Below are positions 1 to 6,000 of a stretch of DNA of 64,000 nt, one piece after another (position 1 is the stretch's first letter; each line of letters begins with the position of its first letter). Position numbers: made by a program. Source of the stretch: Escherichia coli (GTDB lineage Bacteria; Pseudomonadota; Gammaproteobacteria; Enterobacterales; Enterobacteriaceae); the NCBI RefSeq assembly GCF_011045215.1, contig NZ_CP049201.1; one strand, written 5' to 3'.

Positions 1-3000
1 CGAATTCCTGAGTACTATAGCAATCAAGTATCTCCAGATAAAATCAGACAGGAATTTCAAGACTTCAATAAAAAACTATGCCCAAATAAATCTTTTTCCA
101 AAACAATAACACAATTGCCATCTCCTTCTCGATGGTGTCAGACCCCACGCCCAGCTTATTACAATGCCATTCAAGAGGGAAAATATAAAACAGACATGTC
201 AGACCGTTTCGCTGTCGCCAATGAGTGTGTAACCACATCATTATTAAGGTACCGCCAAGTTTTATTAAAAGAACAAGCTCGTTTATCCTTAAGTAAAAAT
301 GCCCCTCATTATAGATGGATGTGGTTTATTATTATGTCTTTTTTTATTGGTGGGAAAATTGCCAATGTAATGACAAAAATAGGTAATGTAGAGAATCGTC
401 TCATAACTGAGAAACATAGAGTTAAATTCATCCTTCTAAAAACATGTGGTTTTATTGTGCGTACATTAATAAGATGTGCCATCTTATTTCGGAAAGTGTT
501 TTTTCAACTATCAATTATATCAAAAGATTGAAGAAAATAAAGCATGATACTTAAATAGAATAGTAACAAATACTCAATTGCAAGGTCATTCTTTGTGTTG
601 AATGAATAAAGAACAAGGGGACTTTCTCCTGTACCCTTGGAGTTTATATTAGATGATGCATCTGAATCTACTTTGGTGATTCACACTCGCGGCAATAGTG
701 TTTTGTACTCAACCGTTTATACAATAGCATCCATGACTAATTGAGCATAGATCTCAGTAAGCTTATTAATTATCCACTTATTGAAAGAATTCGTGGATCG
801 CTCTTGCCGATAAAATCAGGGAATGTATTGCTCTTGGTGATAATGCCATTGGGAAAAATTACCAACCAGCCATCCCATTAAGGCTAGCCGATTAACTTTA
901 ATTGAATCGCCACGGATTTGGCAAACAATTCACATGTCTCTACTACGCTTGATTTTTTCGTAGTATAACAGCGTAACCCTTTTCTCCCAGTTTACATACA
1001 AGAAACCTGTTCATCATTGCTGATGAAGATATATGCTGCCCTTACACGATAATTGTTTAGGATAGTAACAATGCCTTTAGATTAAAGTAACACTTTAGTG
1101 ATTGGCATCAGCGCGACTGCGCTTTTTGATATGAGTGAATCCGATCGCATGTTTTGCGAAACCTATGCGACCGATCCTGATAGCGCCATTGAAAAATACC
1201 GCGCCTATATGCTGGAGCACGAAAACCAACCTTTACAGCCTGGAACAGGCTACCCTTTAGTCAAAGCGTTGCTGGGTCTGAACCAGTACCGTCAACCGGA
1301 TGATAAATCACCGTTGGTTGAAGTCGTTGTGATGTCGCGTAACAGCCCTGATACAGGTATCCGCGTTCTGAATACTATTCGCCATGACAGGCTCGATATC
1401 ACGCGCTCTGCCTTTACAGCAGGCGAAACCGTTGCTGATTACCTTGATGCCTTTGATGTGGATCTGTTTTTAACAACTAACGTTGAAGATGCGCAAAAGG
1501 TGATTGATTCCCGATTCTGCGCCGCTGCAATCCTGAAAGATCCGCCTTCTGACGCATCTGATATCCCGGAAGGGCAAGTGCGCATTGCTTTTGACGGCGA
1601 CGCGGTACTTTTTTCCGATCAAAGCGAACTGGTTTATAAGACCCAAGGAATGGCTGCCTTTCATGCTCAGGAAGACGCACAGCAGGATATCCCTATGGAA
1701 GAGGGGCCTTATGCCACTTTGCTAAAAAAATAGCCAAGCTTCAGGAACGATTGCCGACCCGCGTTGAGTATTCTCCTGTTCGTATTGCATTGGTGACAGC
1801 CCGAAATAGCCCTTCGGAAATGCGCGTTATTAAAACGCTAAGAAGCTGGGGGGTATATGTCGATGAAGCTTTTTTTCTTGGCGGCGTAGAGAAAACAAAA
1901 GTTCTGAAGGCATTTAAACCACACATTTTCTTCGACGATCAGGATGTGCATTTAAATACTGCTGCAAAGGTTGTACCTTCCGGGAAAGTACCTTATGCCA
2001 GTAACTCCGAACTGGCAGAGCGTGAAGCATCGTAATTATCGCTGACAAACCATTTAGTCATTAAGGCTGGATGGTTTGTATACTACACGCAAAATAACGG
2101 CCCTACCCCAGATCAATGCTCGCCTCTGAACACCTCTTTCCTGTGCCATTCCACAAACTGTTCGCCCGGATAATTTTCTTTAACCGGTGGCAACGCAATC
2201 GCTTTTCCCGCAAAATCCCAGAACAGTCGCTGTACCACTCCACCACCATTTACCGCACCGGAAACCACCACACGCATATTTTCATCCAGGCCAATCGAAC
2301 CGCGATCAAACGCTTTATGATGGATTGCGCACAATGCCAGGCCATTAGGTACTTCACAAGGGCCATGGTGCTGCTTCCATCTGATATGAGCAGCTTCCAG
2401 AGCAATCAGCGCATTGTCGTGGCGCATGTTAAAGCTGCAGATAGCGCACTGATAATTGTAAGCACGTAGCACCATCTGGCGAAACTTCGGATCGCGTTGA
2501 CGAAGAGAGGTGCGAATATCAAAACTCATCTCGTCAGCTATATCTTCCTGAATACTGGCCGGGAAATGCGCCTCCAGGAGCTGCTGCGCCAGCGTATCAA
2601 TTAACCTGTAATTTTTTCCACCAACGCAAAATTATCGGCATCAAATCCACCAACGACATTATATTCAATGAGTTCACGTCGGGGCGGTTGGCGGCTACCA
2701 CTGGTTGAGCACAGTTCCGCGTTATGTAGTTCCCAGAAGCCATCGCCCTTCAGACGCCAGAACGGCATGTCCGGGCGCTGGTCACGGCGCTGCGGTCCAT
2801 AACGTTCCAGGAGATCCAACAGGGGCTCGTAGATTTCAGAAGCATAGTTAAACAGGCGACCATGACCCTGCCGATAGTGTGAGAGAACGTACAGCAGCAA
2901 TAATGGCTTATGTGGCGCACGTTGTTCGCCTTTGCGCCAGATGGTGATATTTGATATCGCTTGCTTTAGGGTTTTGTCAGAGGTCATTGCGTTGAAGAAT

Positions 3001-6000
3001 CCATGAGCATATGTTTGCGATGATGCTCGCAACTATATGTATATTCAAGGCATTATTGCAGACATCCTTTTTGCCTGACGGCTCTGTACCTGGCAGATAG
3101 AATTCTGAAAAAATACAGCGACTAACCAGTCCTAAGCGGTCTGGTTGGTCTTTTAAATTTAAACATCAGCCAAGGAGTAACGGCATTCAACTCACTCGCC
3201 ATTACCCCGATTGATCTTCGCATAGTCAAACGGCGTAATCGCTCTTTCCCGATTGGCATCCAGAAAATCGACCCACCACTGCAACATCAGCTTACGCTCA
3301 TCCAGATATTCCGCTTTATGGATTATACGCGGCCTGCACTGAGTTACGTCCATGTGGCTCATCTGACGTTCAGCCGCTTTATCTCGTGCTGTTCTGGTCT
3401 CAATACTTCCATGCCGTTGCAATTACCTCTTAAACCATTCCTTACCATTTTCATGTCTTCGATAAGAAATCTTCATCATGCATGATCGATTTTGTCGATC
3501 GATTCGATCGAATTTTCTCTTTTTACCCTGTCTTTTGCATGGTTTTAAAATAAGCAACCTTATTTATCGTGTGGGTAAGAACCAACGGAGATGATTGAAA
3601 TGAAAAAGGTTATTGCTGTTTCAGCGCTTGCTATGGCGGGCGTATTTTCAGCCCAGGCTCTGGCTGATAGGGGTAAAACAGGCTTTTATGTGACCGGTAA
3701 AGCTGGTGCTTCGGTTGTGACTCAGACTGACCAGCGCTTCCGTCAGGACTTTGGGGATGATGTTTATAAGTATAAGGGCGGTGATAAAAACGATACTGTA
3801 TTTGGTGCCGGCCTTGCGGTGGGCTATGATTTTTATCAACATTACAATGTTCCAGTACGCACGGAAGTGGAATTCTATGGACGTGGAGCTGCAGACTCCC
3901 GTTATACGCTGGATACATGGCATTCTCCGATGGGGGATGGTGGTCGGGAAGACACACTAAACAGGCTCAGTGTGAATACCCTGATGGTGAACACGTATTA
4001 TGATTTCAGAAACAGCAGTGCATTTACTCCATGGGTATCTGTTGGCCTGGGTTATGCACGGGTACATCATAAGGCGACATATACTGATACTTCCTGGAAT
4101 GAATCTGGTGGGATAAGTGATATTTCTGCGTTACATTACTCGGGATATGATAACAACTTCGCATGGAGCATTGGGGCCGGTGTTCGCTATGACGTAACCC
4201 CGGATATCGCTCTTGACCTCAGCTATCGTTATCTGGATGCTGGTAAATCCTCCCTGTATTACAAGGATACAGAAGGGGATAAATATAAATCAGAGGCTGA
4301 CGTTAAAAGTCATGACATTATGTTTGGGGTAACTTATCATTTCTGATGAGAATGTTTGTCCATGCCTGTATATCGCAAATGCAGGTGTGGGTATTATCCA
4401 CAAATAAAAAGGAAAGTCTGGATGGTATATCCTCGTCCGCCAATGACTTTTATTTGCACGAAATGTAACTGGAAAAAAACAATTACCCATGTTAACTGTA
4501 TAAGACCTTTTTCTTCATGCCCCCAATGTGGGGGTAAAGAAATTGCAGTACGTCGTGCAGGTGTCATCCCGATTTTATTGGCAGCATTTACGTCAGGTTC
4601 TTTTCCTGAACGTTGACATTATGATTTTCATTTTTCGGTAATATTTCTGTCTGTTATTGTTGAATAATAACTGGATATATAGAAGAAGCGAGGTCCTTAT
4701 GGATGTGAACAGGGCACAATGTATAACGACGAAAGAATATTTCAGCCGTCTGTATGATGATATTTGTCATAATCTGCAACAGACAACAGATGATATTTCA
4801 AAACTACATGTTGATAATGAAGACGGGAAAAAACAGCTTAACGTAATGATGGAGCAACTGCAGACATTACAGAATAATTTTAATCATAAGCTGAATTATC
4901 TGAAACAGCATGCTGAATGGGACAGATTTACTGTTGCCTTTTTTGGTGAAACAAATGCTGGTAAAAGTACCATTATTGAATCTTTAAGAATTTTTTTTGA
5001 TGAACTCTCTCGCAAACAGCTTTTACAAAATAATCAGAATGATTTGCAACAGGCGGAGCAGGTGTTGTGCGAAAACCTGGAAATGCTACGTCGTGATTTA
5101 ATACAGGCATATAGCGAAGTTGCCAATAAAACTCGTGACATCAGATTGTCTGCTAAGTGTTTGCAACAAATTATCGCTAATGAAAGTCTGTCTCGTTTGC
5201 AAATTTTACAACAGCAAACTCATGCTAAAGTTCGTTTCACGTTATTTGCGACTGCGTTTGGCTGTTTTATAGCAGGTGCTGGCGGAATGGCAGCCTTGTT
5301 GAGTCAAATATGGTAGGGGCTGACAATGAGTGAGACATGGTCTTCTGTAGAGGAGAATCCGGAACGGGTATTCAGGGATACTCACCCGGAATGTAACCCT
5401 GCGAATGATATTCTGTACTTACTGGAGCAAAACTGGTCGCGTTTTGTCAGTTCTTTTATTCTGACAGAGAGATTAAAAAACAGGGCAAGGCGCGTTGATG
5501 GTTTAATCATTGGTACTGGTGAATCCGATTTCACTAAAGGTAATACCCATTATGATTTATGTATTGACGATAAGGTTTTCCGGTTAATTGATGTACCGGG
5601 CATTGAAGGCAATGAAAATTGCTATGCTGATCTGGTTAAAGAAGCTGTTGCGCAAGCGCACCTGGTGGTTTATGTCAACGGAACTAATAAAAAACCCGAA
5701 GCAACAACAGCCAGGAAGATCAAATCTTATCTGGAATATGGTACTCAGGTTTATCCGTTGATCAATGTGCGCGGTTATTCTGAGGCCTATGAGTTTGATG
5801 AGGATCGTATCGATCTCGAACAACAGGGTAGGGTCGGTGACGCTTTATGTCAGACTGTTGGGGTTCTCGCTTCCGTATTAGGGCCGGATGTACTGCTGAA
5901 TGGGAACTGTGTACAGGGATTGCTGGCGTTTTCGGCGTTGGCTTATGACGACAATACACAAAGCACGACCATTCATCCTTCACGTGATCTTAATCTGGCG

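What the first reader, a model, noticed from the sequence alone, without database searches (positions are those of the whole stretch)
1098..3032. Frameshifted HAD-type 5'-nucleotidase-like gene and adjacent split HNH nuclease
The 5'-nucleotidase-like gene is broken exactly at an A7 homopolymer, where a single-base change restores one ~305-codon ORF; this could be a sequencing error, decay or slipped-strand phase variation. The convergent neighbour is an HNH nuclease whose putative N-terminal part lies in a separate frame. Nucleotide-processing enzyme plus nuclease pairs occur in conflict systems, but here both look degraded.
Basis: seen in the sequence. Interest (0 to 1): 0.35.

Follow-up and report, generated by a model that had tools for sequence, protein, structure and literature searches.

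The report
Two decayed phage-defence genes in E. coli
Two neighbouring E. coli defence-island genes, a restriction enzyme that cuts sulfur-modified DNA and a nucleotide phosphatase, have been knocked out by small mutations; this is ordinary gene decay, not a new system.

Summary
The window is E. coli chromosome, with an island at tRNA-Phe (pheV).

- **5'-nucleotidase gene, 1071-2035 (+).** This is a PF06189 HAD-type 5'-nucleotidase and matches the PADLOC defence candidate PDC-S08. It has two lesions. The A8 tract of intact alleles is A7 here (1724-1730).
- **Restriction enzyme gene, 2113-2987 (-).** The convergent "split HNH" is one gene, a 97%-identical allele of the phosphorothioate-dependent restriction enzyme of E. 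coli W (probably EcoWI). It has an N-terminal sulfur-binding domain and a C-terminal HNH. A one-base loss in a second homopolymer breaks it (T7>T6 at 2612-2617), not at 2530-2600.
- **Integrase stub, 3195-3404.** Only the last 70 codons remain.

A general sequencing artefact is unlikely. Only 1 of 49 homopolymers differs across 34.7 kb of core sequence, and 10 kb of adjacent island has no indels against a relative. Related strains carry different lesions in the same genes, and dN/dS is raised.

The two genes are not an obligate pair. None of 80 loci with 5'-nucleotidase homologs encodes an SBD-HNH enzyme.

Verdict: a decaying remnant of a leuX-type defence island. Known kinds, low interest.

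The parts
1071..2035 (+). Pseudogene of a PF06189 HAD-type 5'-nucleotidase (PADLOC candidate PDC-S08). It is 321 codons when restored.
   Evidence: Pfam PF06189 matches on both fragments. PADLOC PDC-S08 at 444 bits, full length. Intact 966-nt alleles are annotated in A12, pMTY18781-2 and E. coli W. Catalytic residues D175, D177, T243, K275, D289 and D290 are still encoded.
1083..1085 (+). Premature TAA at codon 5 (TTA in intact alleles).
   Evidence: Direct comparison with A12 and pMTY18781-2; coordinates checked.
1724..1730 (+). A7 tract where intact alleles have A8. The -1 frameshift comes after codon 220, and the zero frame then stops at TAG 1731-1733. It separates HAD motif I (D175/D177) from motifs II-IV.
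   Evidence: Alignment; tract coordinates. Of 49 complete E. coli genomes carrying this 71-mer region, 48 show one gap relative to the window (A8) and only strain 154 has A7.
2036..2112 (.). 77-bp spacer between the two convergent genes.
   Evidence: Sequence. The consensus scan found no terminator here.
2113..2987 (-). Pseudogene of an EcoWI-type phosphorothioate-dependent restriction endonuclease (SBD-HNH). It is 291 codons when restored.
   Evidence: NCBIfam NF045808 at 438.9 bits against a cutoff of 180. 282 of 291 residues are identical to E. coli W WP_000199891.1. PGAP annotates 'phosphorothioated DNA-binding restriction endonuclease' in relatives.
2612..2617 (-). T6 on the + strand (A6 on the coding strand) where the closest alleles have T7. 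The -1 frameshift comes after codon 125, and the frame stops at 2601-2603.
   Evidence: Alignment, restoration, coordinates. 7 of 191 genomes share this exact 72-mer.
2601..2987 (-). N-terminal fragment: the sulfur-binding domain (SBD), residues 1-125 plus 3 out-of-frame codons.
   Evidence: phmmer hits to the ScoMcrA SBD (5zmo, E 2.8e-6) and the SprMcrA SBD (7cc9, E 9.4e-5) over residues 4-150.
2113..2529 (-). C-terminal fragment: the HNH nuclease domain, left as a 138-codon ORF starting at an internal ATG (Met154).
   Evidence: Pfam HNH_2 PF13391, E 3.8e-9; ORF list.
3195..3404 (-). Remnant of a tyrosine integrase. Only the C-terminal 70 residues (354-423) remain.
   Evidence: tblastn with the pMTY18781-2 integrase gives 71% identity, E 2e-31. 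PGAP annotates 'integrase, incomplete, missing N-terminus' in A12, strain 154, ERP001 and JNU.

Best explanation
Window 1-3400 is the dead end of an old integrative defence island. It is of the type found intact at tRNA-Leu (leuX) in E. coli W, in the order tRNA, integrase, PT-dependent restriction enzyme, 5'-nucleotidase, variable defence genes, type I R-M. Here it has lost its integrase N-terminus and its tRNA junction, and it is fused to the tia-leoCBA island at pheV.

When intact, the two genes act independently.
- The SBD-HNH enzyme binds phosphorothioate-modified DNA through its N-terminal sulfur-binding domain. It cuts nearby with its HNH domain and so restricts incoming dnd-modified DNA. 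This is shown for EcoWI in PMC7461809.
- The 5'-nucleotidase is a HAD phosphatase of unproven role. It is listed only as defence candidate PDC-S08. Its probable activity is dephosphorylation of (deoxy)nucleotides; this is inferred.

In this genome both are non-functional through ordinary mutational decay under relaxed selection.
- Replication slippage removed one base from an A8 tract and one from an A7 tract (coding strand). Such tracts are mutational hot spots.
- A point mutation created a stop at codon 5 of the nucleotidase.

The lesions are shown. That they are real rather than read errors is inferred from controls. The cause of the relaxed selection is not known.
For: - Identity of the genes.
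- Intact pair in E. coli W and on pMTY18781-2, in the order tRNA-Leu, integrase, restriction enzyme, nucleotidase.
- Integrase remnant.
- Same remnant with different lesions in relatives. A12 has an intact nucleotidase and restriction enzyme R254*. Strain 154 has the nucleotidase A7 plus a separate 10-bp deletion, and also R254*. In ERP001 the nucleotidase is replaced by IS elements and the restriction enzyme has the same T6 frameshift, on a region only 96% identical to the window.
- Population counts: R254* in 8 of 174 genomes, T6 in 7 of 191, A7 in 1 of 49.
- Relaxed selection: dN/dS for the restriction enzyme is 0.76 between the window and A12, against 0.10-0.18 in the other allele comparisons. 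For the nucleotidase it is 0.13 against 0.03-0.04. The counts are small.
- A substitution-type lesion (TAA at codon 5) lies in the same gene as the frameshift. A homopolymer read error cannot produce it.
- Assembly quality: 1 of 49 homopolymers differs in 34.7 kb of core sequence. There are no indels in 10 kb of adjacent island.
- Other private nonsense mutations occur in the window: leoB CAG>TAG and a TAG in cmtA.
Against: - No reads are available. Both frameshifts are single-base undercalls of A/T homopolymers, which is the typical error of some long-read platforms.
- All six one-base differences from A12 in window 1-3200 are deletions on the window side.
- The dN/dS values rest on 8 non-synonymous and 3 synonymous changes.
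- The defence role of the nucleotidase is only a PADLOC candidate call. I found no experimental paper.
- That EcoWI comes from E. coli W rests on the naming convention and on the matching 33.4 kDa size (and PMC7461809). I found no stated accession.
Confidence: 0.8

Rival explanations
1. Sequencing or assembly artefact. The true genome has A8 and T7, both genes are intact, and the frameshifts are homopolymer undercalls.
For: Both frameshifts are -1 changes in A/T runs of 7-8 nt. Other one-base deletions relative to A12 lie nearby, at about 498, 620 and 979. The A7 allele is otherwise seen in only one assembly.
Against: - Only 1 of 49 homopolymers of 6 nt or more differs from the nearest reference in 34.7 kb of core sequence, and it is intergenic.
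- There are no indels in window 3188-13400 against JNU.
- The nucleotidase also has a substitution-type stop.
- Sister strains carry independent lesions in the same genes.
- dN/dS is raised.
- Errors would not be expected to cluster in a 3-kb island remnant.
Confidence: 0.12
2. Slipped-strand phase variation. The A-tracts act as reversible ON/OFF switches for costly or self-toxic defence genes.
For: Both breaks are in homopolymers. The T6 allele recurs on a diverged allele background in ERP001, 96% identical over the aligned region. This suggests recurrent slippage at that site.
Against: - The OFF alleles are rare: 1 of 49 and 7 of 191.
- Tracts of 7-8 nt are short for contingency loci.
- The nucleotidase has a second, non-reversible lesion.
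- Relatives lose the same genes through nonsense mutation, a 10-bp deletion and IS insertion.
- In the E. coli W-type allele the tract is interrupted (GATTTTTTG) without loss of frame, so the tract is not conserved.
Confidence: 0.05
3. Recoding. A -1 ribosomal frameshift on A_AAA_AAA (1724-1730, in the X_XXY_YYZ register and followed by UAG), or transcriptional slippage, still yields some full-length nucleotidase.
For: Read from the sequence, the A7 run lies in the correct register for tandem -1 slippage: codons CUA AAA AAA UAG. A -1 shift is the direction that restores the downstream frame.
Against: - Homologs are in-frame, with A8 in 48 of 49 E. coli genomes.
- Intact proteins of 42-97% identity occur in the 80 loci from other species, so frameshifting is not the conserved state.
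- No stimulatory element was sought or seen.
- The TAA at codon 5 stops translation upstream of the tract.
- The restriction enzyme site has no heptamer in register.
Confidence: 0.03
4. The nucleotidase and the nuclease form an obligate two-gene conflict system, so they are lost together.
For: They are adjacent and convergent in 47 complete E. coli genomes, and both are dead here. In other taxa the nucleotidase sometimes neighbours other modification-dependent nucleases, such as GmrSD in Desulfomicrobium and Azotobacter.
Against: - None of 80 loci with nucleotidase homologs encodes an SBD-HNH homolog.
- Neighbours vary. Defence genes appear beside close homologs. MutY-like/SfsA and DUF1653 genes appear beside distant Firmicute homologs.
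- The restriction enzyme is present in 186 E. coli genomes and the nucleotidase in 61.
- A12 keeps the nucleotidase intact while its restriction enzyme carries a stop.
- EcoWI restricts PT-modified DNA on its own (PMC7461809).
Confidence: 0.03

Closest known systems
EcoWI, the SBD-HNH phosphorothioate-dependent restriction endonuclease (Lutz et al. 2020, PMC7461809; NCBIfam NF045808)
   Same: - The restored protein is 291 aa. 282 of 291 residues are identical to the E. coli W protein, whose 33.41 kDa mass matches the size given for EcoWI.
- It matches NF045808 over its full length.
- It has an N-terminal SBD homologous to those of ScoMcrA and SprMcrA and a C-terminal HNH_2 domain.
- It has the same island position, next to a tRNA-associated integrase.
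   Different: - It is frameshifted after codon 125, so the SBD and HNH are uncoupled.
- Two substitutions near the HNH motif are found in the window but not in the four other alleles compared, G185S and P194L.
- No activity can be assumed.
ScoMcrA / SprMcrA type IV enzymes (PDB 5zmm, 5zmo, 7cc9)
   Same: They share the sulfur-binding domain fold and sequence signal (E 2.8e-6 to 1e-4) and an HNH effector.
   Different: There is no SRA domain. The protein is much shorter. Identity is low, and only the SBD matches.
Pfam PF06189 '5'-nucleotidase' (the cytosolic 5'-nucleotidase IA family) and PADLOC phage-defence candidate PDC-S08
   Same: - It matches PF06189 and matches the PDC-S08 model at 444 bits over its full length.
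- The HAD motif residues are conserved.
- Close homologs (72-97% identity) lie among R-M, McrBC, GmrSD, SIR2 and Dsr1 genes.
   Different: - It is inactivated here.
- The family has no solved structure by sequence search and no experimental defence evidence that I could find.
Nucleotide-pool defence effectors with HAD domains (PUA-Cal-HAD, CARF-HAD; PMC12871103, PMC12715507)
   Same: They use a HAD phosphatase as a candidate effector that depletes nucleotides, in a defence-island context.
   Different: There is no recognisable sensor domain. Only a degenerate duplicated HAD-like N-terminal half is present. No relationship beyond the superfamily was shown. This is an analogy only.

Membership tests
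EcoWI-type SBD-HNH PT-dependent restriction endonuclease (NCBIfam NF045808) | Full-length match to the family model above its curated cutoff | tested here: met
   The restored 291-aa sequence scores 438.9 bits against a cutoff of 180, covering model positions 2-284 of 284.
EcoWI-type SBD-HNH PT-dependent restriction endonuclease (NCBIfam NF045808) | N-terminal sulfur-binding domain | tested here: met
   Residues 4-150 align to the ScoMcrA SBD (5zmo, E 2.8e-6) and the SprMcrA SBD (7cc9, E 9.4e-5).
EcoWI-type SBD-HNH PT-dependent restriction endonuclease (NCBIfam NF045808) | C-terminal HNH nuclease domain | tested here: met
   Pfam HNH_2 PF13391, E 3.8e-9, 36.7 bits against a cutoff of 21.
EcoWI-type SBD-HNH PT-dependent restriction endonuclease (NCBIfam NF045808) | Single uninterrupted reading frame joining the SBD and HNH | tested here: not met
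   A one-base deletion at 2612-2617 gives a stop at 2601-2603. This is a pseudogene of the family, not a functional member.
EcoWI-type SBD-HNH PT-dependent restriction endonuclease (NCBIfam NF045808) | Cleavage dependent on phosphorothioate-modified GpsAAC/GpsTTC | not testable with these tools
   This was shown biochemically for EcoWI only (PMC7461809).
PF06189 5'-nucleotidase / PADLOC PDC-S08 | Match to the Pfam and PADLOC family models | tested here: met
   PF06189 scores 240.3 and 126.9 bits on the two fragments. PDC-S08 scores 444.1 bits over residues 1-316 of the restored protein.
PF06189 5'-nucleotidase / PADLOC PDC-S08 | HAD catalytic motifs: I (DxD), II (T/S), III (K), IV (DD) | tested here: met
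   D175, D177, T243, K275, D289 and D290 are invariant in 23 homologs and are encoded in the window. Assigning these residues to the HAD motifs is my reading of the sequence.
PF06189 5'-nucleotidase / PADLOC PDC-S08 | Intact reading frame | tested here: not met
   TAA at codon 5 and an A8>A7 frameshift after codon 220.
PF06189 5'-nucleotidase / PADLOC PDC-S08 | Demonstrated anti-phage activity or nucleotidase activity | not testable with these tools
   This is a candidate system only. No paper with data was found.
Phase-variable contingency locus (slipped-strand mispairing) | Frequent ON/OFF tract-length polymorphism among close relatives, with the tract as the only lesion | tested here: not met
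   OFF alleles occur in 1 of 49 and 7 of 191 genomes. The nucleotidase has an extra nonsense lesion. Relatives are inactivated by other lesion types.
Programmed -1 ribosomal frameshift gene | The frameshift requirement is conserved in homologs | tested here: not met
   Homologs are in-frame. Only the slippery heptamer register is present.
Obligate two-gene nucleotidase + nuclease defence system | Adjacency conserved across taxa | tested here: not met
   None of 80 loci has an SBD-HNH homolog. The two genes have unequal prevalence in E. coli.

The most novel reading that the evidence does not exclude
The PF06189/PDC-S08 'nucleotidase' may be a real, uncharacterised anti-phage effector. On this reading it is a HAD phosphatase carrying a catalytically dead duplicate of itself as a regulatory half, and it removes phage-specific (modified) dNMPs. 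It would cooperate loosely with neighbouring modification-dependent nucleases: SBD-HNH in E. coli and GmrSD in Desulfomicrobium and Azotobacter. Its coding A8 tract would be a recurrent point of loss when the gene becomes costly. In this window the gene is dead, so the window could only serve as a natural loss-of-function allele.
Probability: 0.1. Interest if true: 0.5.

Novelty: already known. Interest (0 to 1): 0.15.

Why it matters
It matters little on its own. The result has three practical uses:
- **Annotation.** The two "HNH-region ORFs" should be one EcoWI-type pseudogene. The nucleotidase should be a pseudogene with two lesions.
- **Homopolymer hot spots.** Coding homopolymers of 7-8 A/T in E. 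coli defence genes are recurrent points of loss.
- **Island history.** Defence-island remnants next to a truncated integrase decay piecemeal, with different lesions in different lineages.

The only forward-looking point concerns the PDC-S08 nucleotidase family. It is very conserved (72-97% identity across Gammaproteobacteria and beyond) and island-borne, yet untested. Intact alleles such as that of E. coli W would be the ones to test.

Tried and rejected
- **Global homopolymer-error artefact.** I tested this by aligning 34.7 kb of core sequence to strain OkiPb01695 and 17 kb of island to strain JNU. It is rejected as a general property of the assembly. It cannot be excluded for the two individual sites without reads.
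- **Obligate gene pair.** I scanned 100,044 species genomes for nucleotidase homologs and obtained 80 loci. tblastn with the SBD-HNH protein gave no hits, and GmrSD gave hits in only three loci. Pfam and PADLOC censuses of the flanking ORFs showed variable neighbours.
- **Phase variation and programmed frameshifting.** Both are rejected on allele frequencies and on in-frame homologs.
- **Literature on PDC-S08, PF06189 and nucleotidases in defence.** Nothing relevant was found.
- **Promoter and terminator scan of 500-3700.** It found no more sites than shuffled sequence, and no terminator between the convergent genes.

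
Full report
**Where the window comes from**

The window is E. coli chromosome. Positions 22000-46000 match 5425 of 5426 complete E. coli genomes at 98-99% identity, covering yqgA, speC, nupG, mutY through to galP. A tRNA-Phe gene (pheV) lies at 21780-21855. To its left is a mosaic island: an integrase, then regulators, a diguanylate cyclase, an MFS transporter, a phosphoethanolamine transferase, leoA/B/C and tia. The finding sits at the far left end of this island.

**Checking the observation: the nucleotidase**

- ORFs 1098..1733 and 1751..2035 (+) both match Pfam PF06189 '5'-nucleotidase', at profile positions 10-208 and 221-300.
- Megablast found the same 2.4 kb in other E. 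coli genomes. PGAP annotates it there as '5'-nucleotidase | phosphorothioated DNA-binding restriction endonuclease | integrase'.
- Intact 966-nt and 876-nt genes exist in strain A12 (nucleotidase only), on plasmid pMTY18781-2 and in E. coli W.
- Alignment shows exactly one base missing from an A8 run, which is A7 in the window at 1724-1730.
- Using the annotated start (ATG 1071), the window also has TTA>TAA at codon 5, 1083-1085.

**Checking the observation: the nuclease**

- ORFs 2601..3032 and 2113..2529 (-) are one gene.
- The only frame-breaking difference is one T missing from a T7 run, which is T6 at 2612-2617.
- Restoring the T gives a clean 291-codon frame.

**What the genes are: the restriction enzyme**

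- The restored nuclease scores 438.9 bits on NCBIfam NF045808 'phosphorothioated DNA-binding restriction endonuclease'.
- Its N-terminal 150 residues align to the sulfur-binding domains of ScoMcrA and SprMcrA.
- Its C-terminus is an HNH_2 domain.
- It is 282/291 identical to the E. coli W protein. That protein's computed mass is 33.41 kDa, the size published for EcoWI (PMC7461809).
- EcoWI is a dimeric, Mg-dependent enzyme. It recognises GpsAAC/GpsTTC, cuts at N7/N6 and blocks transformation by dnd+ plasmids (PMC7461809).
- The frameshift after codon 125 uncouples the sensor from the nuclease.

**What the genes are: the nucleotidase**

- The restored protein matches PADLOC's candidate single-gene system PDC-S08 at 444 bits.
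- D175, D177, T243, K275, D289 and D290 are invariant in 23 homologs. I read these as the HAD motif residues.
- The frameshift after codon 220 separates motif I from motifs II-IV.
- Profile-profile comparison shows that the N-terminal half is a diverged duplicate of the catalytic half (93.6% probability). The aligned N-terminal sequences lack the DxD and DD motifs.

**The integrase remnant**

Window 3195-3404 (-) encodes only residues 354-423 of a leuX-type integrase. PGAP annotates it as an incomplete integrase in relatives.

**Real mutation or artefact?**

I cannot see reads, so this rests on controls.

- Against the nearest core reference (99.0% identity), only one of 49 homopolymers of 6 nt or more differs in length. 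It is intergenic, and no core gene is frameshifted.
- Window 3188-13400, AT-rich island DNA, has no indel against strain JNU.
- The nucleotidase carries a substitution-type stop as well as the frameshift.
- The window has two further private nonsense codons. One is leoB CAG>TAG at 6040-6042, shared by none of 69 genomes. The other is a TAG in cmtA at 58269-58271, where only 1 of 5384 genomes shares the surrounding 71-mer exactly.
- Relatives carrying the same island remnant have different lesions:
  - A12 has restriction enzyme R254* and an intact nucleotidase.
  - Strain 154 has R254*, plus A7 and a 10-bp deletion in the nucleotidase.
  - In ERP001 the nucleotidase is replaced by IS elements, and the restriction enzyme has T6 in a region only 96% identical to the window.
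- In complete genomes, R254* occurs in 8 of 174, T6 in 7 of 191 and A7 in 1 of 49.
- dN/dS for the restriction enzyme between the window and A12 is 0.76, against 0.10-0.18 in the other allele comparisons. The counts are small.

Together these favour genuine decay at about 0.8. One caveat is that every one-base difference from A12 in the first 3.2 kb is a deletion on the window side.

**Are the two genes a system?**

No.

- A scan of one genome per species returned 80 loci with nucleotidase homologs of 42-97% identity. None encodes an SBD-HNH homolog.
- In Yersinia artesiana (97% identity) the gene lies directly between an integrase and a SIR2 protein that matches PDC-S25.
- In Shewanella it lies between variable defence genes and a dynamin-like cluster.
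- In Desulfomicrobium and Azotobacter it lies between R-M systems and GmrSD.
- Distant Firmicute homologs have a housekeeping-like context instead. MutY-like/SfsA genes lie downstream in 20 of 74 loci, and DUF1653 lies upstream in 23 of 75.
- In complete E. coli genomes the restriction enzyme is present in 186 and the nucleotidase in 61.
- EcoWI works alone (PMC7461809).

**Alternatives considered**

- Phase variation is unlikely. OFF alleles are rare, the tracts are short, the tract is not conserved in the E. coli W allele, and the nucleotidase has a second lesion.
- The A7 run happens to be in the X_XXY_YYZ register for -1 frameshifting. However, homologs are in-frame, and the codon-5 stop precedes the tract.

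**Verdict**

This is a correctly spotted pair of pseudogenes. Both belong to known kinds: one characterised enzyme family and one catalogued defence candidate. They sit in a decaying remnant of an integrative defence island. It is ordinary, and useful mainly for annotation.

Noticed in passing
window 5326-7041 (stop at 6040-6042): leoB, the dynamin-like protein gene of the tia-leoCBA island, is split by an in-frame TAG where strain JNU has CAG (Q239*). None of the 69 E. coli genomes carrying this region shares the window's 71-mer.
   Followed up: partly
window 57423-58811 (stop at 58269-58271): cmtA, the PTS mannitol-type IICB gene, appears as two contiguous in-frame ORFs separated by TAG. Only 1 of 5384 genomes (strain WEM25, beach water) has the identical 71-mer, so this is probably a rare nonsense allele. 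WEM25 may be a close relative of the source strain.
   Followed up: partly
window 1-553 (about 492-498): The 3' end of the upstream hypothetical gene (421 aa in strain A12, downstream of a DEAD/DEAH helicase) has a T7>T6 change. This replaces the last ~17 residues. Two more one-base deletions relative to A12 lie in the intergenic DNA at about 620 and about 979.
   Followed up: partly
restored 5'-nucleotidase protein (window 1071-2035), residues 38-135 vs 192-289: The PF06189 protein is an internal duplication. The N-terminal half is homologous to the catalytic HAD half (hhalign 93.6%, E 2e-7) but lacks the DxD and DD motifs. It may be a regulatory pseudo-enzyme domain.
   Followed up: partly
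L004-L007 (Shewanella) 6001-12340; compare window 4657-8746: In Shewanella the 82%-identical nucleotidase lies directly upstream of a four-gene dynamin-like GTPase cluster, in four different left-hand contexts. The window also has a dynamin-like cluster (leoCBA) 2.6 kb downstream of its nucleotidase. This may be coincidence or a shared island backbone.
   Followed up: no
L034-L094 (mostly Lachnospiraceae and Clostridia loci): Homologs of the nucleotidase at 45-50% identity have a conserved context that does not look like defence: DUF1653 upstream and a MutY-like (HhH-GPD + NUDIX_4) or SfsA gene downstream. The wider family may therefore have a DNA-repair or nucleotide-sanitation role.
   Followed up: partly
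window 3188 (junction) and L014 1-4190: The truncated integrase stub is a recombination boundary. Strain JNU has the same stub plus tia-leoCBA, but different cargo to the left: a type I R-M, an AAA ATPase and a hypothetical gene in place of the nuclease and nucleotidase.
   Followed up: partly
window 53468-53589 and 25205: A 122-bp insertion relative to strain OkiPb01695 lies between speB and loiP. It looks like a REP-type repeat, with GCCGGATAAG...CATCCGGC motifs. Separately, an intergenic A8 against A9 difference after speC is the only homopolymer length difference in 34.7 kb of core sequence.
   Followed up: no
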